Shown here: positions 11,971-60,936 of the stretch, one piece after another
How positions within the stretch are numbered: the stretch's first letter is position 1
Layout: each line of letters starts with the position of its first letter
Virus record (IMG/VR): IMGVR_UViG_2630968748_000003
Reading direction: 5' to 3' (one strand)
DNA from: a virus
Length of the DNA stretch: 64,000 nucleotides
Translations under genes and position numbers: made by a program
The notes under the pieces: generated by a model
The model's input: only the letters and a program-made list of their open reading frames with translations
The model's database searches: none
Told to the model about the DNA's origin: nothing

Positions 11971-12594
11971 TTATTTATATTCGGGGAATAGGTTCATATT
12001 CTCCGCAATTTTTTCTTGTCGTTCTTGTGGATCAACGATTGCCATAATTTCATCACGTGTGATCGTGGAACGTTGACCCGAAATTCTTGGTGTTGCTCCC
12101 TTTGTTAGTTCCTTGGTTGTTTCGTCTTTGATTGATTGAATGAACTTAACCAATTTACCAACGTTGGTTTTTGTGCTGTCGGCTTGATCGGTTGTAACCA
12201 AGTCTAATGCCTCGTCGCTTGCTGTGATCCCTTGTTCTTTGAACATTGAACTAGCGGTATCACGCATTCGATAAGTTGCAAGTTCCGCCTTTGCTTTGTC
12301 TGCCTCGGCTTGTACTTGCTGTAATTGATACTTTTGTTTCTCGTCGGAGTTCATTTTTGCTAACTTCTTAGCCTCGTCAACTTCGTGTTGTCGTTTCTTT
12401 TCCGCTCTGTCCAACTTTTGTTGAACAATTGCGTTGACCTCCTCATCAGTGTATTTTTTTCCACCGGTCTTTTCTTGATCGTCGTTGTTATCTTTGTGAT
12501 CGTCTGTCTTATTTTCTTCCGGTGTTGCAACCCCTGTGTTTCGGTCTTGTTTGTTCAACTCTTCGGTTGATTGAGTATCTGTTTGGTTATCCAT
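11971..12594 (-). CDS. Capsid scaffolding protein (DUF4355-like)
   Basis: Acidic N-terminus, KKYTDEEVNAIV, coiled coil, TPR near the C-terminus. Confidence 0.9.
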   Translation of the reverse strand: MDNQTDTQSTEELNKQDRNTGVATPEENKTDDHKDNNDDQEKTGGKKYTDEEVNAIVQQKLDRAEKKRQHEVDEAKKLAKMNSDEKQKYQLQQVQAEADKAKAELATYRMRDTASSMFKEQGITASDEALDLVTTDQADSTKTNVGKLVKFIQSIKDETTKELTKGATPRISGQRSTITRDEIMAIVDPQERQEKIAENMNLFPEYK

Positions 12595-12610
12595 AAATAA
12601 ATTCTCCTAT

Positions 12611-12720
12611 CCATTAGCTTTTAACGTGGATCAATGCTTGCACATTCCATATCTTTTAAAGTGATAAATGCTTGCACTTTGCTACACCATAGCTTTTTAC
12701 GTCTTCAATGCTTGGACGTA
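12611..12720 (-). promoter_or_regulatory. Three tandem hairpin+AAAAG(C/A)UA RNA elements in the scaffold leader (copy 2 at 45069-45178)
   Basis: 6-bp stems with different sequences, conserved CAAGCAUU loop, one U-G pair valid only on the minus strand. Confidence 0.75.
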
Positions 12721-12755
12721 CAAAAAAAGCACTCAACCGTTTTGGTTGAATGCTT
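12721..12755 (-). terminator. Intrinsic terminator after the minor capsid gene
   Basis: AAGCATTCAACC/GGTTGAGTGCTT stem followed by a T run on the minus strand. Confidence 0.8.
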
Positions 12756-12861
12756 AATATTTGATACTTACAAAATCATATCTTTTGGATCAGTAGGTTT
12801 GAACGGTTGTTTGTTCAAAATTGCTTTTTCCATTTCGCTACATGCTTTTTCAATGTCGTTG

Positions 12862-27807: not shown

Positions 27808-28422
27808 ATGAGAACTAACGATGAAATTATGAATATATTAGATGATTTAAAATCAAAACAAAATTTATCTATAAGTGAAATAGCACGCAGAACCGGTATG
27901 GCTAAATCAGCTGTTTCCAGATATTTTAATAGAACAAGAGAATTCCCTTTAAATCGCGTAAATGATTTTGCCAAAGCATTTCATATAGAACCTGATTATT
28001 TATTGAATATCGATAACTCTCAATCTCCTAAGCATAAAACTGCAATGATTCCTATACTAGGCGAAATTGCATGTGGAGATCCAATAACTGCAGAAGAAAA
28101 TATAGAAGGATATTTGGAGGAGCCTGAGGACTCGCTCCCAAGTGGTACCGTATTCTATCTAGTTGCTAAAGGTCATTCAATGGAGCCTACCATCCCTAAT
28201 GGCTCCAATGTCTTAATTAGAGAGCAACCAGAAGTTGAGGACGATGAAATAGCTGCAGTCCTAGTTAATAGTGATACAGAAGCAACTTTGAAACGGGTTA
28301 AACATTCTGGGAACATTGTAATGCTTATGCCAGATAACAAGGACTATGATCCAATTATAGTAACCAAAGACAGCCCTGCTCGTATTCTTGGCAAAGCAAT
28401 CAGATATACAACTGAACTGTAG
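27808..28422 (+). CDS. cI: CI repressor, XRE HTH + S24 peptidase
   Basis: GEIACG cleavage region, GHSMEP serine and TLKRV lysine. Confidence 0.95.
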   Translation: MRTNDEIMNILDDLKSKQNLSISEIARRTGMAKSAVSRYFNRTREFPLNRVNDFAKAFHIEPDYLLNIDNSQSPKHKTAMIPILGEIACGDPITAEENIEGYLEEPEDSLPSGTVFYLVAKGHSMEPTIPNGSNVLIREQPEVEDDEIAAVLVNSDTEATLKRVKHSGNIVMLMPDNKDYDPIIVTKDSPARILGKAIRYTTEL

Positions 28423-28425
28423 TTT

Positions 28426-28455
28426 AATGTCCAAACACTGATGACAATAAAAGCT
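28426..28455 (+). promoter_or_regulatory. Single copy of the hairpin+AAAAGCT motif in the ltp leader
   Basis: TGTC-CAAACACTGAT-GACA-AT-AAAAGCT, same spacing as the scaffold elements. Confidence 0.6.
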
Positions 28456-28479
28456 GACTATTGGGAGGAATTACAAATT

Positions 28480-29025
28480 ATGAAAAGAGAAGAAAATAAG
28501 AAAAAACCTTTCTATAAGAAATGGTGGTTCTGGTTAATCGTTGCATTTGCAATTATTATTGTAGGAAATACAATCTCCGACAGTGGAAATAAAACAACAC
28601 CTGAAAGTACAAAGACCGAAAAAACTACCCCGAAAGCTAATACAAAAGAAACAAAAGAGGCAGAAAAGAAAGTAAAAAACTTCTTTAAATCTGATGATTC
28701 TAAAAAAGAAGATAATGTACCAGCTGAATATAAATCAGCACTAAATAAAGCTAAAACATATTCGAACCTTATGTATATGTCGAAACAAGGTATTTATGAC
28801 CAACTAACTTCTGAGTACGGAGATAAATTTTCTGCCGAAGCAGCACAATATGCTGTAGATAATCTAAAGGCTGACTACAATAAAAATGCACTTAAAAAAG
28901 CTAAATCTTATCAAAAAGACCAAGATATGTCATCTGAAGGCATTAGAGATCAATTAACATCAGAATATGGCGAAAAGTTTACACAATCTGAGGCGGATTA
29001 CGCAGTACAGCATTTAAACGACTAG
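28480..29025 (+). CDS. ltp: Ltp-family superinfection exclusion protein
   Basis: TM anchor and two Ltp repeats (ALNKAKTY..SKQGIYDQLTSEYGDKF..AQYAVDNL). Confidence 0.9.
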   Translation: MKREENKKKPFYKKWWFWLIVAFAIIIVGNTISDSGNKTTPESTKTEKTTPKANTKETKEAEKKVKNFFKSDDSKKEDNVPAEYKSALNKAKTYSNLMYMSKQGIYDQLTSEYGDKFSAEAAQYAVDNLKADYNKNALKKAKSYQKDQDMSSEGIRDQLTSEYGEKFTQSEADYAVQHLND

Positions 29026-29034
29026 GAGCAAATA

Positions 29035-29400
29035 ATGACAAAACTACTATGGAAGACTTTTATATTTATAATCAGCTTTATAATAATTGTTAGAGTTTTA
29101 TTTGATCCATCAATGTTATTTTACACAATTCCTTTTATTATAATATTAGCAGTAATATTATTGGGATTATATAAATTTGGAAGGCCCTATTTTGATAAGA
29201 TGCTTGGATTTTTAAAAGTAAAAACTCCAGAATTAACAAAAAATGTATCTCAAAAAACCACAGGATACATTAAAGAAAAAAGCACTGAAAAGAAAAATAA
29301 AAAACTGGATTTAGATAAATTAGAAGAAATGCATAAACTTGTTGAAAAAGGTGTTTTAACACAAGAAGAATTTAACAAGAAAAAAGAGGAAATGCTATAA
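29035..29400 (+). CDS. Membrane protein with a C-terminal SHOCT domain
   Basis: Two TM segments; LEEMHKLVEKGVLTQEEFNKKKEEML. Confidence 0.85.
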   Translation: MTKLLWKTFIFIISFIIIVRVLFDPSMLFYTIPFIIILAVILLGLYKFGRPYFDKMLGFLKVKTPELTKNVSQKTTGYIKEKSTEKKNKKLDLDKLEEMHKLVEKGVLTQEEFNKKKEEML

Positions 29401-29410
29401 ATTCTCATTA

Positions 29411-29440
29411 AATAAGCCACCCTAGGCTTATTTATTTTTA
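29411..29440 (+). terminator. Intrinsic terminator after the ltp operon
   Basis: AATAAGCC/GGCTTATT stem and T-rich tail. Confidence 0.7.
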
Positions 29441-30923: not shown

Positions 30924-31152
30924 ATGGTACTCAAAATGGTACCTAAGCGAAAAAACAGCCCTTGAGAAGCCTTGTAACTACTGATATATCGGGAGTTATT
31001 AAAATTAGTATCCGATTCCCCTCATCTCCATTTTTTAAATTTCATTACGTTTTATAAGGGCGCAAACCCTTGATAACACAACGTTTTTATTTTTTGAGGT
31101 TTTACGAAATTTCGTAGGATTTCATACTCATGGTACTCAAATGGTACTCAAA
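30924..31152. other. attP-like junction: core 31013-31030 flanked by arm-type repeats
   Basis: ATGGTACTCAA(A)-type pairs at 30924-30946 and 31130-31152; palindrome TACGAAATTTCGTA at 31103-31116. Confidence 0.9.
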
Positions 31153-31706: not shown

Positions 31707-32693
31707 TTATCCCTTAAATCCACTACCTTGCTGAAATTTAACTGGGATATATTCATCTGTGGAAACTTGGTAGCACCAGCCAACATTAGGTACTTTAAAT
31801 AGTTCTTCACCGGTTGCCCATGAAGTGCCACCTTTAAATACTTGGTTGCTGTCTTTTATGCTTTGACCTTTAGAATTGTATGCATTAACTCCGTAACCGT
31901 CTAAATAGTTAATAACAATCTTGCCCGCCTTGTCAGTGACAGACTGTGGAATGTAAGTATCATTGCCGATTTTAAAGTATGCTTTTTTATCACGTACTAG
32001 AATATCAGCTGATTGCCATGCCGTGCCACTAAGGATATCAGTCCCAATATGAGGAACGCCTTTGCTACTTGTTGTGGTAAATGCTTTGAAGTAGTCAGCC
32101 GTCACAGTCACCACATTATTAATAGTGGCTTTCTTCTCTGGTTCGGGATCGTCATCAAATCCGTTTGCAAGGTCATATGCTAGCTGTGATTTAGTGATAC
32201 CCATGCTTGCAAAGTAAGGGTAAGGATCAACGTGGTCACCGCCAAAATTATTAGTTACCCATTGATGTGTCTTGATTCCATTGCCCCCACTGTCTAGAGT
32301 GAGCGGGATACCGTAAGCATTAGCGTAGTAGCGAGCTACTTCCACATACAAACGATAGGCTTCTCTAAATTGGTGTTTGTCGCCAGTGCGGGCAAACTCG
32401 ATTTGTACTGGTGCGTATGGATTAGCCGTTAATGCTCCCCACGATACGTAGCCTGGTTCACCGATTTGGTAAACTTGTGCCTTGCCGTCCATATAACCAA
32501 CAAAAAACTGGACGTAAGCACTGCCATAGTTGTTATGCATATACTGAACCTCATGCAGTAACGCTTGTGGATCTCGTTTGTCGTTATCATTACCTGATTC
32601 GTGGAGGATAATAAAACGGTTAGAAGCTAGCCGTGTATCACCTTGATAATCGTCTAATGTGTATGTCTTATTAATGATATTAGGATTAAACAT
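31707..32693 (-). CDS. Endolysin: Amidase_2 domain + two SLAP-like binding domains
   Basis: IILHESGN, QIEF and HQWV..DHVDP motifs; C-terminal GTAWQ..YFKIG and GTSWAT..YQVSTDEYIP. Confidence 0.92.
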   Translation of the reverse strand: MFNPNIINKTYTLDDYQGDTRLASNRFIILHESGNDNDKRDPQALLHEVQYMHNNYGSAYVQFFVGYMDGKAQVYQIGEPGYVSWGALTANPYAPVQIEFARTGDKHQFREAYRLYVEVARYYANAYGIPLTLDSGGNGIKTHQWVTNNFGGDHVDPYPYFASMGITKSQLAYDLANGFDDDPEPEKKATINNVVTVTADYFKAFTTTSSKGVPHIGTDILSGTAWQSADILVRDKKAYFKIGNDTYIPQSVTDKAGKIVINYLDGYGVNAYNSKGQSIKDSNQVFKGGTSWATGEELFKVPNVGWCYQVSTDEYIPVKFQQGSGFKG

Positions 32694-42937: not shown

Positions 42938-43304
42938 TAGTATTTCCTCCCGAATGAATACGGGTCAACAAACTTGATCGTAGGCAACGGGTTCTCTGAA
43001 TGTTCTTTCAAATAGTCCGTAATGTCGTTTTCAAAGCCCGAAAAGTCATCATCACTAAACGTAATACTTTCTCCGTCCTGTGAATAAGAGGTCATGCCCT
43101 CGTTACTCATGCGGTTGTATCGTCTGATAGACACCTCAAACAATATAAATTCCAAAGAGCTTGGCACGTCCTCTGTGGTATGTAGTTTAGACTTCAATCG
43201 TTGAGTAGTTCGTTTAATGATTAGGTTTAACAGCTTATCACGATCATTATTTGAAATAGACAAGGCGGTTTAATGTCATCTAGTAGCGTAGTTTCTTCTG
43301 CCAT
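42937..43304 (-). pseudogene. Head-tail connector (copy 2), frameshifted as assembled
   Basis: 1-bp deletion near 43270 versus copy 1; probable sequencing error. Confidence 0.8.
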
Positions 43305-43312
43305 ATTTCCAC

Positions 43313-43470
43313 CTATCCTTTCGTCGTGAATGTTGATGAATGAATAACTTTTTTCCTTTTCGTAATTCCATGACTTGCTCTGATCCTGCTTTAAGACCTG
43401 TCAAATGGACTGTATCTCCCAATTTAAAGTCTTTTTTAATTAGCTTGTCATTACAATATAAGTCTGCCAT
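43313..43470 (-). pseudogene. FN3-like small protein (copy 2), frameshifted as assembled
   Basis: 1-bp deletion near 43350. Confidence 0.7.
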
Positions 43471-43537
43471 TTAAACACCCCTAACGTCTGCTGTTGTCTT
43501 TGTAGCGTTTGCTACTTCAACTCCGGCAACTTCGGGA

Positions 43538-44424
43538 CTAGCTGGGAGAGTCTGTTCCTGCCTCTGCTGAAATAGTAGATACAATGATACCGTCCAAACG
43601 TTCTGGTAATAGCAAGAGAGCGTCTGCAACAACACTTTCGTATGATAGTGAGTCGTTCTTAGGTTCGTGAGCAATTCCAACGAGTCCTGTTTGATCGGTT
43701 GTAAAGTTGAATGCTTGTGAGAGTGATCCACCGTTCAAATGTTGCAAAGTATAAGTTTAGGTTTTGTGAAGCTGTAACGTAAATTGTACCTGCTGGAACG
43801 TTGTTACTCATGATTAAAGTATTTACACCAAGGAAATTTTGAATGTAAGTCATACCGAATACTGTTTGAACTGTTACAGGTGCTGAACCAATGTAATCAT
43901 AAAAATCAATAGGGTTGACTAATGCAACAGAGGTAACGTCCTCGGTCCTCGAATGCAACTGCGAGTTGACCCAAGCCTTTTGCAAGTGATTGTTGAAAGC
44001 TGCTCCTGTTGCCTTACCAGTTCCGTTTGCAAATTCGTCGAACAATTCTTTCTTGATATTCTTTTGAATTGCTTGAGTAGTTCGGAGTCTGTGTCTGCAA
44101 CGCACCTTGAAATCCACTTGATTGAATTGCTTCCGCAGTTACATTCTTGCGCCATTTGTTAAAGGTTAATTCCTTAGTGTCTGATAGTTCTTTTTTGACT
44201 TCTGATAATGGAATAACTTCGCCTCTGCAACCTTTTCGTCTGCAAGAGTAACTGTTGACTTGTAAATCTTCACTGTTGATCCTAATGCAAGAGCTTGTTT
44301 GCGTGTGATACCGAGAACTTTCATTAATGTTGTAAGTCCCTCGTGAATTGTTCTACGAAATCAACTGATTGTGGAATTAACTGTCTTTTGTAACTGTCTT
44401 TTCGTCTACTGCCATGGTGTCCAT
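43538..44424 (-). pseudogene. Major capsid protein (copy 2), frameshifted as assembled
   Basis: 8 single-base indels versus copy 1; probable sequencing errors. Confidence 0.85.
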
Positions 44425-44434
44425 GACCTCCTAA

Positions 44435-45052
44435 TTATTTATATTCGGGGAATAGGTTCATATTCTCCGCAATTTTTCTTGTCGTTCTTGTGGATCAACG
44501 ATTGCCATAATTTCATCACGTGTGATCGTGGAACGTTGACCCGAAATTCTTGGTGTTGCTCCCTTTGTTAGTTCCTTGGTTGTTTCGTCTTTGATTGATT
44601 GAATGAACTAACCAATTTACCAACGTGGTTTTTGTGCTGTCGGCTTGATCGGTTGTAACCAAGTCTAATGCCCTCGTCGCTTGCTGTGATCCCTTGTTCT
44701 TGAACATTGAACTAGCGGTATCACGCATTCGATAAGTTGCAAGTTCCGCCTTTGCTTTGTCTGCCTCGGCTTGTACTTGCTGTAATTGATACTTTGTTTC
44801 TCGTCGGAGTTCATTTTTGCTAACTTCTTAGCCTCGTCAACTTCGTGTTGTCGTTCTTTTCCGCTCTGTCCAACTTTTGTTGAACAATTGCGTTGACCTC
44901 CTCATCAGTGTATTTTTTCCACCGGTCTTTTCTTGATCGTCGTTGTTATCTTTGTGATCGTCTGTCTTATTTTCTTCCGGTGTTGCAACCCCTGTGTTTC
45001 GGTCTTGTTTGTTCAACTCTTCGGTTGATTGAGTATCTGTTTGGTTATCCAT
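44435..45052 (-). pseudogene. Scaffold protein (copy 2), frameshifted as assembled
   Basis: 8 single-base indels versus copy 1. Confidence 0.85.
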
Positions 45053-60879: not shown

Positions 60880-60936
60880 TTTAATGTCCAAACACTGATG
60901 ACAATAAAAGCTGACTATTGGGAGGAATTACAAATT

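What the first reader, a model, noticed from the sequence alone, without database searches (positions are those of the whole stretch)
28426..28482. The scaffold-leader RNA motif recurs before ltp in the lysogeny module
Seen, plus strand: GTC-CAAACACTGAT-GAC-AAT-AAAAGCT has the same 11-nt loop pattern (CAARCAYTGA) and the same stem-to-AAAAGCT spacing as the scaffold elements, and again sits just before a Shine-Dalgarno (copy 2 near 60883). Inference: a general phage cis-regulatory RNA used in both lysogenic and late transcripts, implying a shared trans-acting factor or a portable translation enhancer rather than scaffold-only feedback.
Basis: partly seen in the sequence, partly recalled or inferred. 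Interest (0 to 1): 0.7.

Follow-up and report, generated by a model that had tools for sequence, protein, structure and literature searches.

The report
Portable pseudoknot leader before prophage cargo genes
The short RNA element in front of the phage's ltp (superinfection-exclusion) gene is a real, fourth copy of the small pseudoknot found before the scaffold gene. It belongs to an uncatalogued RNA family that sits at a fixed distance before the ribosome-binding sites of accessory genes in many prophages of lactic acid bacteria, and probably sets how well those genes are translated.

Summary
A covariance model built only from scaffold leaders of other phages scores the ltp site at 24.3 bits (E about 6e-6). 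The next non-motif hit in the phage scores 9.5 bits.

- **Copy 2.** It is not independent. The prophage is a head-to-tail dimer.
- **Structure.** The element is more than a hairpin. It folds as an H-type pseudoknot: a covarying 3-5 bp stem, the loop CAAnnnYUGAN, the linker NNUAAAAG, and a second helix between loop and tail. At ltp this second helix is only C-G, U.U, G-C.
- **Recurrence.** I found 106 distinct relatives of the ltp type.
  - They lie before Ltp, lipoprotein, membrane and defence-like genes, often one per gene in arrays between repressor and integrase.
  - The start codon lies 24 nt (quartiles 23-26) after AAAAGCU.
  - The element often begins 5-9 nt after the preceding stop codon.
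- **Distribution.** It occurs in 34 of 36 genomes of the genus, while only 2 carry the scaffold type. This argues against scaffold-only feedback.
- **Catalogue status.** Rfam 15 has no matching family.
- **Function.** Function is inferred, not shown. A portable translation-setting leader is most likely. A repressor operator and a processing or stability module are the main rivals.

The scan had already found the scaffold-type motif, on this window and on other DNA.

The parts
28428..28457 (+). ltp-type pseudoknot element. S1 is 28428-31 pairing with 28443-46 (UGUC/GACA). The loop is 28432-42 (CAAACACUGAU). Linker L3 is 28447-53 (AUAAAAG). P2 is C38-U39-G40 pairing with C54-U55-G56, followed by A57.
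   Evidence: R1 24.3 bits; R2 44.9 bits; pair counts
28458..28482 (+). A/U-rich spacer, Shine-Dalgarno GGGAGGA (28463-69) and the ltp start codon (28480-82). The ATG lies 24 nt after AAAAGCU.
28480..29025 (+). ltp-like gene: an N-terminal membrane anchor plus two Ltp repeats.
   Evidence: PF07553, E 2.8e-48
27808..28422 (+). cI-like repressor (HTH_3 + Peptidase_S24). Its stop codon ends 6 nt before the three-pair core of S1 (G28429).
29035..29434 (+). SHOCT-domain ORF following ltp with no element of its own, then a terminator-like hairpin (29409-29434). This looks like the end of the cI-ltp transcription unit.
60885..60914 (+). It is not an independent copy.
12610..12721 (-). Three tandem scaffold-type pseudoknot units (12721-12686, 12678-12648, 12647-12610), preceded by a terminator hairpin.
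11971..12594 (-). Scaffold gene (DUF4355, Gp46-like).
31013..31035 (.). Probable att core. These 23 nt are shared by both outer ends and the middle junction of the prophage dimer.

Best explanation
The ltp site is a genuine member of an uncatalogued family of about 30-nt H-type RNA pseudoknots. These form in the sense transcript immediately 5' of the ribosome-binding site.

The family has two subclasses:
- A scaffold type, with a 5-layer second helix, often in tandem.
- A cargo type, as at ltp, with a 3-layer second helix (C-G, U.U, G-C).

In the cI-ltp transcript the pseudoknot fills the gap between the repressor's stop codon and the ltp Shine-Dalgarno. Its 3' edge lies about 23 nt before the AUG, where mRNA leaves the Shine-Dalgarno duplex on the 30S platform.

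I propose that it acts in cis as a portable leader that sets translation initiation of the gene behind it. It could do this by insulating the RBS from upstream sequence and upstream ribosomes, or by docking on the ribosome or a host factor. It would need no late phage protein.

Shown: the family, the fold (by covariation), the strand, the spacing and the gene contexts.
Inferred: that it is transcribed as part of the cI-ltp mRNA, and that its effect is on translation.
For: Membership:
- R1, built from scaffold leaders only, hits the ltp site at 24.3 bits, against 9.5 for the best background hit.

Fold, on 86 mixed sequences:
- S1 is 91% paired, and all 4 of its pairs show double changes.
- P2 pair 7-8' is U-A in 45 and C-G in 34.
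- P2 pair 9-6' is G-C, U-A or U.G.
- P2 pair 6-9' is A-U, G-C, C-G or U-A.
- The covariation score is 0.401 against 0.124 in shuffles (0 of 500 reach it), and at most 0.108 when the partners are slid.

Fold, on 106 cargo-type elements alone:
- The three core S1 pairs are paired in 106 of 106.
- Every element with U7 has A8' (4 of 4).
- The rare G6 and C6 variants mostly pair with C9' and G9'.

Sense-strand RNA rather than duplex DNA: 23 G.U against 2 A.C at paired positions, and always the same orientation as the downstream gene.

Link to translation:
- The start codon is 24 nt after AAAAGCU (quartiles 23-26; 85 of 94 fall within 20-28).
- The Shine-Dalgarno starts 13 nt after AAAAGCU, although the spacer sequences differ.

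Portability:
- Arrays of repressor/ImmA, then element-gene, element-gene, element-gene, then integrase, occur in several prophages.
- Downstream genes include Ltp, lipoproteins, membrane proteins, DUF3644/REase-like and DUF4428.

Independence from late genes:
- 34 of 36 genus genomes carry cargo-type elements, and only 2 carry the scaffold type.
- One copy lies behind its own TATAAT.
Against: - There is no expression, probing or reporter data.
- Nested folding of the ltp leader is no more stable than shuffles (-8.0 kcal/mol, z 0.14).
- At ltp, P2 has only two Watson-Crick pairs around a U.U. The fold would therefore need Mg2+, tertiary A-minor contacts or a bound partner.
- Within the cargo type, P2 varies little (C-G in 100 of 106), so most P2 support comes from the scaffold type and a few variants.
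- The tight spacing could partly reflect inheritance of element plus RBS as one block.
- The direction of any effect on translation (up or down) is unknown.
Confidence: 0.5

Rival explanations
1. Operator for a trans-acting RNA-binding repressor. A host or phage protein binds the pseudoknot and blocks the adjacent RBS. Cargo genes and head genes would then form one post-transcriptional regulon, in the manner of T4 gp32/RegA or S15.
For: - The loop and linker nucleotides are highly conserved (C1, A2, UGA, UAAAAG), beyond what pairing needs.
- The pseudoknot is intrinsically marginal and would benefit from a ligand.
- Scaffold leaders carry tandem units, which suits cooperative binding.
- The element sits at a fixed position next to the Shine-Dalgarno.
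Against: - No candidate protein was identified.
- Cargo-type elements occur in prophage remnants and behind a chromosomal promoter, without scaffold-type elements. A phage late protein is therefore unlikely, and a host protein would have to be conserved across at least 5 families.
- The two subclasses differ systematically in the loop.
Confidence: 0.2
2. mRNA processing and stability module. A host RNase cuts beside the element, and the compact pseudoknot then shields the new 5' end. This would uncouple the downstream gene's level from the upstream one (repressor versus Ltp, portal/MuF versus scaffold/capsid).
For: - Scaffold-type elements sit directly after a terminator-like hairpin, which could protect the upstream fragment. 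A T-tract lies within 14 nt in 31 of 62 units of the CAAGCAUUGA scaffold type, and in 7 of 7 scaffold-gene leaders that carry a CAAACACUGA loop with an AAAAGCUUGUG tail.
- Elements mark boundaries between genes that need different expression levels.
- sRNA-like processed species between int and repressor genes, some dependent on RNase Y, are reported for S. pyogenes prophages (PMC4829319). Whether these overlap this motif was not checked.
Against: - The tight spacing to the start codon is not needed for a stability element.
- At ltp and most cargo sites there is no upstream hairpin (5 of 48).
- No 5'-end data are available.
Confidence: 0.18
3. Miniature riboswitch. The pseudoknot binds a small molecule or ion and gates the RBS, as preQ1-I does.
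For: - The size and architecture match preQ1-I: a short stem, an 11-nt loop, an A-rich linker, and a second helix ending just before the Shine-Dalgarno.
- The unpaired nucleotides are invariant.
Against: - Downstream genes have no common metabolic theme.
- No Rfam riboswitch model matches, even at E up to 10.
- Loop positions 3-6 vary freely in the cargo type.
- No alternative pairing that sequesters the Shine-Dalgarno is conserved (seen by inspecting the leader sequences printed).
Confidence: 0.06
4. DNA-level element: a promoter, a protein-binding inverted repeat, or a recombination linker that only marks cassette boundaries.
For: - Near-identical sequences of about 30 nt recur at the 5' edge of successive cargo genes.
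- They could serve as homology for module shuffling, as proposed for the T4 PeSL cassettes (my own knowledge).
Against: - The stem positions covary instead of being conserved.
- The G.U against A.C asymmetry of 23:2 points to the transcribed strand.
- The promoter scan finds no site over the element.
- The -35-like positions are exactly the covarying ones.
Confidence: 0.05

Closest known systems
Scaffold-leader tandem pseudoknot motif
   Same: - Same S1 stem.
- Same loop frame (C-A-A-R-C-A-Y-U-G-A-N).
- Same NNUAAAAG linker.
- Same register of the second helix.
- Same sense orientation just 5' of a Shine-Dalgarno.
- A model of one type finds the other.
   Different: - The ltp type has A4 and C7 in place of G4 and U7.
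- The tail is CUGA instead of CUAUGG, so P2 has 3 layers instead of 5.
- It is single rather than tandem.
- It usually follows a stop codon rather than a terminator.
- It precedes lysogeny-module cargo genes rather than scaffold genes.
preQ1-I riboswitch aptamer (Rfam RF00522)
   Same: - About 34 nt and an H-type pseudoknot.
- A short P1 and an 11-nt loop.
- An A-rich 3' linker lying along P1.
- A very short P2 that ends at the RBS.
   Different: - No sequence or model match.
- No queuosine-related genes downstream.
- No evidence of a ligand.
Phage T4 gene 32 mRNA leader pseudoknot (autogenous translational operator)
   Same: A phage mRNA leader pseudoknot upstream of an RBS, followed by an A/U-rich unstructured stretch. 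It is proposed to control translation.
   Different: - The T4 element is specific to one gene and its own product.
- The element here precedes dozens of unrelated genes, many of them expressed from prophages.
- There is no sequence relationship.
Type III antitoxin RNAs (ToxI, antiQ): tandem ~35-nt pseudoknot repeats
   Same: - Unit size of about 36 nt.
- A pseudoknot per unit.
- An A-rich single-stranded linker.
- Tandem arrays in the scaffold leader.
   Different: - No ToxN/AbiQ-type gene lies downstream; the downstream gene is Ltp.
- No PF13958 match was found in the genome, although the control genomes did not ring either.
- The cargo type occurs as single copies.
- No Rfam match.
Lambda nutL/nutR (boxA + boxB)
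   Same: One small hairpin-plus-linear-box RNA element reused in two divergent transcription units of a temperate phage.
   Different: - nut acts on transcription elongation and is not tied to an RBS.
- Here the fixed 24-nt distance to the start codon points to translation.

Membership tests
Scaffold-leader pseudoknot family (uncatalogued) | Covarying 3-5 bp stem S1 closing an 11-12 nt loop | tested here: met
   UGUC/GACA at 28428-31 and 28443-46, with an 11-nt loop. S1 is 91% paired with double changes at all 4 pairs across 86 sequences.
Scaffold-leader pseudoknot family (uncatalogued) | Loop frame C-A-A-R-C-A-Y-U-G-A-N, and linker NNUAAAAG at fixed spacing | tested here: met
   CAAACACUGAU followed by AUAAAAG. 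The column conservation is shown.
Scaffold-leader pseudoknot family (uncatalogued) | Second helix P2 between loop positions 5-9 and the tail C-U-A-U-G | tested here: inconclusive
   At ltp only C7-G8', U8.U7' and G9-C6' can form; A6.A9' and C5.C10' cannot. The 7-8' pair switches U-A to C-G between the subclasses, and U7 always goes with A8' in the cargo type. P2 is therefore shortened, not absent.
Scaffold-leader pseudoknot family (uncatalogued) | Scored by a model trained on scaffold leaders alone | tested here: met
   24.3 bits, E about 6e-6. The next background hit scores 9.5 bits.
Scaffold-leader pseudoknot family (uncatalogued) | Sense orientation, immediately 5' of a Shine-Dalgarno | tested here: met
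   Shine-Dalgarno at 28463-69 and ATG at 28480. The family median is 24 nt to the start codon.
preQ1-I riboswitch (RF00522) | Match to the Rfam covariance model | tested here: not met
   No hit even at E up to 10 on 28350-28550 or on 12500-12850.
preQ1-I riboswitch (RF00522) | Association with queuosine biosynthesis or transport genes | tested here: not met
   The downstream genes are Ltp, lipoproteins, membrane proteins and scaffold.
Type III toxin-antitoxin RNA antitoxin | Tandem repeats directly upstream of a ToxN/AbiQ-family endoribonuclease gene | tested here: not met
   The ltp site is a single unit upstream of Ltp (PF07553). There is no PF13958 match in the genome, although the control genomes did not ring, so the sensitivity of that search is unverified.
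Any curated Rfam 15 family (including Lactobacillales or phage motifs) | Gathering-score match anywhere in the window | tested here: not met
   0 matches over 64 kb on both strands.
Translational operator bound by its own gene product (T4 gp32 / P22 scaffold type) | Element restricted to the mRNA of the protein that binds it | tested here: not met
   The same element precedes at least 90 different proteins. It also occurs in genomes that lack the scaffold-type copy.

The most novel reading that the evidence does not exclude
The pseudoknot is the sensor of one hidden post-transcriptional regulon. A single host-encoded factor or small ligand would stabilise or melt this preQ1-I-sized fold. It would thereby co-ordinate translation of prophage cargo genes (superinfection exclusion, envelope and defence proteins) in lysogens, and of scaffold and capsid genes late in infection. 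The near-identical 30-nt leaders would at the same time act as the recombination joints that let cargo cassettes shuffle between phages.
Probability: 0.15. Interest if true: 0.85.

Novelty: new variant of a known kind. Interest (0 to 1): 0.64.

Why it matters
- **A new RNA family.** Accessory (moron) genes of prophages shape host immunity to other phages and the host's surface properties. How their expression is set inside the repressor operon is largely unknown.
- **A defined, testable handle.**
  - The element is about 30 nt and covariation-supported.
  - It lies at a fixed distance from the RBS of such genes and recurs gene after gene.
  - It is found in at least five families of the order, with related copies in streptococcal phages and in Clostridia and Lachnospiraceae assemblies. 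A possibly related, divergent form precedes the scaffold gene of a staphylococcal phage.
- **Annotation.** It gives a way to annotate cargo cassettes in prophages.
- **Engineering.** It is a candidate natural RBS insulator or enhancer for lactic acid bacteria.
- **Interpretation of the scaffold elements.** It shows that the scaffold-leader pseudoknots are not a scaffold-specific feedback device.

Tried and rejected
- **Rfam.** Scans of the whole window at gathering score, and of both leaders at E up to 10, found nothing relevant.
- **Literature.**
  - A search for the loop sequence returned only primers.
  - Word searches for a phage leader pseudoknot before scaffold or superinfection-exclusion genes found no description. 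One further call failed on syntax.
- **Nested folding.** MFE folding of the ltp leader is no better than shuffles. It suggested a UCCAA/UUGGG pairing with the Shine-Dalgarno. I rejected this as a switch because most relatives have UAGGGG-type Shine-Dalgarno sequences that cannot pair that way (sequences).
- **Promoter reading.** Rejected. The would-be -35 positions are the covarying stem, and the scan finds no site over the element.
- **Coding reading.** An in-frame ATG at 28441 gives a 13-codon N-terminal extension of ltp. I rejected it for two reasons:
  - The ATG exists only when loop position 11 is U.
  - No Shine-Dalgarno precedes it.
- **Pairing of AAAAGCU with the upstream terminator's U-tract.** Not general, since the ltp site has no terminator.
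- **K-turn and box C/D reading of CUGAUGA.** Rejected, because position 11 is variable.
- **Type III antitoxin reading.** No ToxN-family gene was found (the controls were silent).
- **Earlier notes of this scan.** Look-ups by sequence and by specific words found nothing for the ltp type.
- **Staphylococcal phage hits.** These turned out to be a divergent two-unit scaffold leader in phiNM1. Its second helix I could not assign, so I did not count it as a member.

Full report
**1. What is at the coordinates**

On the + strand the cI-like repressor gene (27808-28422; HTH_3 + Peptidase_S24) ends with TAG at 28420-22. Five bases later comes UGUC (28428-31). It is followed by the 11-nt loop CAAACACUGAU (28432-42), GACA (28443-46), AUAAAAG (28447-53) and CUGA (28454-57). 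A short A/U spacer, the Shine-Dalgarno GGGAGGA (28463-69) and the ATG at 28480 follow.

The downstream gene encodes a membrane-anchored protein with two Ltp repeats (PF07553, E 2.8e-48). A SHOCT-domain ORF and a terminator-like hairpin at 29409-34 come next.

On the minus strand, after a terminator hairpin, the scaffold leader carries three tandem units of the same design (12721-12610). They are followed by the DUF4355 scaffold gene.

**2. Copy 2 is not independent**

The window holds the same 32.46-kb phage twice (repeat spacing 32457-32470). A BLAST of one unit against the whole genome shows a head-to-tail dimer. The same 23 nt (unit 31013-31035) lie at both ends and in the middle, which is the attL-phage-attP-phage-attR layout.

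The 18 single-base differences between the copies all fall in the last 1.7 kb of the contig. They are consensus errors.

**3. Is the resemblance more than chance?**

- I collected scaffold leaders from IMG/VR with the pattern CAAGCATTGA..AAAAGCT.
- I kept 41 distinct units that had a stem, aligned them (A1) and built model R1. R1 contains no ltp-type sequence and nothing from this window.
- With filters off on one phage copy, R1 finds the three scaffold units (48.9, 43.6 and 26.0 bits) and then the ltp site (24.3 bits, E about 6e-6).
- Everything else scores 9.5 bits or less.

The strict pattern occurs 6 times in the 2.59-Mb genome, all inside the two phage copies, and 0 times in the reversed control.

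**4. The ltp variant is itself a large family**

A scan for CAAACACTGA..AAAAGCT in IMG/VR gave over 100 loci. The 7-nt gap was strongly over-represented (37 of 117), and those hits have complementary stems: GUC/GAC, GAC/GUC, CUC/GAG and GUG/CAC.

A combined model R2 gave the following counts:

| Genomes searched | With a match |
|---|---|
| Own genome | 11 hits: 8 in the two phage copies, 3 at 749-787 kb before membrane or lipoprotein genes of a prophage remnant |
| Other genomes of the genus | 34 of 36 |
| Genomes of the family | 42 of 150 (23 of 42 genera, own genome included) |
| Genomes of the order | 12 of 150, in 5 of 9 families |

Named genomes with stem-bearing elements include Companilactobacillus, Secundilactobacillus, other Lactobacillaceae, Streptococcus pneumoniae, and Clostridia and Lachnospiraceae MAGs. 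Published phage genomes that carry it leave it unannotated, for example Lacticaseibacillus phage R3.3.

**5. The fold**

In scaffold-type units, loop positions 5-9 pair with the tail C-U-A-U-G that follows AAAAG. The pair counts are:

| Pair | Counts |
|---|---|
| 5-10' | C-G 59 of 62 |
| 6-9' | A-U 54, G-C 5, U-A 1 |
| 7-8' | U-A 62 |
| 9-6' | G-C 55, U-A 4, U.G 3 |
| 8-7' | mostly U.U |

On the mixed alignment A3 (86 sequences) the counts were:

- S1 is 91% paired, with double changes at all four pairs.
- Pair 7-8' is U-A in 45 and C-G in 34.
- The overall covariation score is 0.401 against 0.124 in shuffles (0 of 500 reach it), and at most 0.108 for slid partners.

In 106 distinct cargo-type elements the counts were:

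- The three core S1 pairs are paired in all 106.
- Pair 7-8' is C-G in 100, and U-A in all four elements that have U7.
- The rare G6 and C6 variants mostly pair with C9' and G9'.
- In most elements 6-9' is A.A.

The cargo type, including the ltp site, therefore has a three-layer second helix (C-G, U.U, G-C).

At paired positions G.U outnumbers A.C by 23 to 2. This places the structure on the transcribed strand. Nested folding alone is not stable (z 0.14), as expected for so small a pseudoknot.

**6. Context**

- *Downstream genes of the cargo type.* They include Ltp-like proteins, lipoproteins, membrane or secreted proteins, DUF3644/REase-like, DUF4428 and ParA-like proteins, and once an integrase. 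By a crude N-terminal test, 68 of 90 distinct products look like envelope proteins.
- *Spacing to the start codon.* It lies 24 nt after AAAAGCU (quartiles 23-26), and the Shine-Dalgarno starts 13 nt after it. The spacers differ in sequence.
- *Spacing to the preceding gene.* In 22 of 41 cases the element's core stem starts 5-9 nt after the preceding stop codon.
- *Arrays.* In several prophages the module reads repressor/ImmA, then element-gene, element-gene, element-gene, then integrase.
- *Loop type and gene type.* Scaffold genes can carry either loop type. The CAAACACUGA loop with an AAAAGCUUGUG tail precedes Asn-rich scaffold proteins, so loop type and gene type are not strictly tied.
- *Independence from the scaffold type.* Only 2 of the 36 genus genomes with hits carry scaffold-type units.
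- *A chromosomal copy.* One conserved chromosomal copy follows a TATAAT-like box and precedes a 40-codon ORF next to tRNA genes.

**7. Mechanism**

Shown: one RNA family, its fold, its strand, its fixed position relative to the RBS, and its reuse before unrelated genes in lysogenic and late transcripts.

Inferred: that it acts on translation initiation in cis. Its 3' edge lies about 23 nt before the AUG and 11-12 nt before the Shine-Dalgarno. That is where mRNA emerges on the 30S platform, and where known pseudoknot operators such as S15 and gp32 act (my own knowledge).

Many copies work without scaffold-type partners and in prophages or their remnants. Scaffold autoregulation therefore cannot be the general mechanism. 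The most economical reading is a portable leader that insulates the RBS or presents it. Ranked below it are an operator for a host factor, a processing or stability module, a riboswitch, and a DNA-level role. Each is set out with its evidence and its refuting test in the structured fields.

**8. Comparison and novelty**

No Rfam 15 family matches, and I found no description in the searchable literature.

In architecture the element is closest to preQ1-I. In proposed role it is closest to the T4 gene 32 leader. It fails the membership tests of both.

This scan had already noted scaffold-leader pseudoknots, on this window (e1-5348251) and elsewhere (e1-5161344, e1-3482143). Three things are new here:

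- The cargo-gene subclass.
- Its arrays in lysogeny modules.
- The evidence that the family is not specific to scaffold genes.

I class it as a new variant (a new family or subclass) of a known kind, the cis-acting mRNA leader pseudoknot.

**9. Limits**

- All functional statements are inferences.
- The E-values of the home-made models are rough.
- Kin genomes are not independent.
- Elements were partly ascertained with patterns that fix the loop and tail. Invariance of those columns is therefore overstated in A1 and in parts of A3.
- The genome searches with R2 are less biased and gave the loop variants used for the P2 test.

Noticed in passing
window 1-64000; att core at about 31013-31035: The prophage is a head-to-tail dimer (attL-phage-attP-phage-attR). 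A 23-nt sequence is shared by both ends and the middle junction, and the contig junction of the circular chromosome falls inside copy 2 (43217/43218).
   Followed up: yes
window 43268-44912 (copy 2 major capsid and scaffold genes): 18 single-base indels relative to copy 1, all within the last 1.7 kb of the contig, against 0 differences over the first 10.6 kb. This looks like poor consensus at a contig end rather than pseudogenisation.
   Followed up: yes
L381:1440-1730 (same genus, chromosomal); also L377, L380, L382, L371: A conserved stand-alone locus: a TATAAT-like box, a hairpin, a cargo-type element (loop CAGAUGCUGAU), a Shine-Dalgarno, a 36-40-codon ORF (MKLTVWIKSLFKAERTE...) and a terminator, next to tRNA genes. 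It is present in several species of the genus, and the function of the small ORF is unknown.
   Followed up: partly
own genome C1:749162-750691 and 787238-787274 (L351-L353): Three more cargo-type elements lie outside the dimer. They carry variant loops (CAGAUUCUGAA, UAAAUACUGAA) before small multi-pass membrane proteins and a lipoprotein, beside a truncated S24-repressor fragment and the end of an Ltp-like gene. This is probably a decayed prophage.
   Followed up: partly
L423:1490-1610 (Staphylococcus phage phiNM1, 21130-21250): Two tandem hairpin-plus-AAAA units lie after a terminator and before the scaffold gene of a Dubowvirus. Their loops are CAAACCAUGCUUAU and CGAACCAUGUAU. This is a possible distant relative of the family, but I could not assign its second helix.
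   Followed up: partly
window 28441-28479: An in-frame ATG inside the element would add 13 codons to ltp. ORF callers may therefore annotate a too-long Ltp that swallows the RNA element.
   Followed up: yes
PMC4829319 (S. pyogenes SF370 prophages 370.2-370.4): Small, partly RNase-Y-dependent RNA species are reported between integrase and repressor genes of streptococcal prophages. I did not check whether any of them overlaps an element of this family.
   Followed up: no
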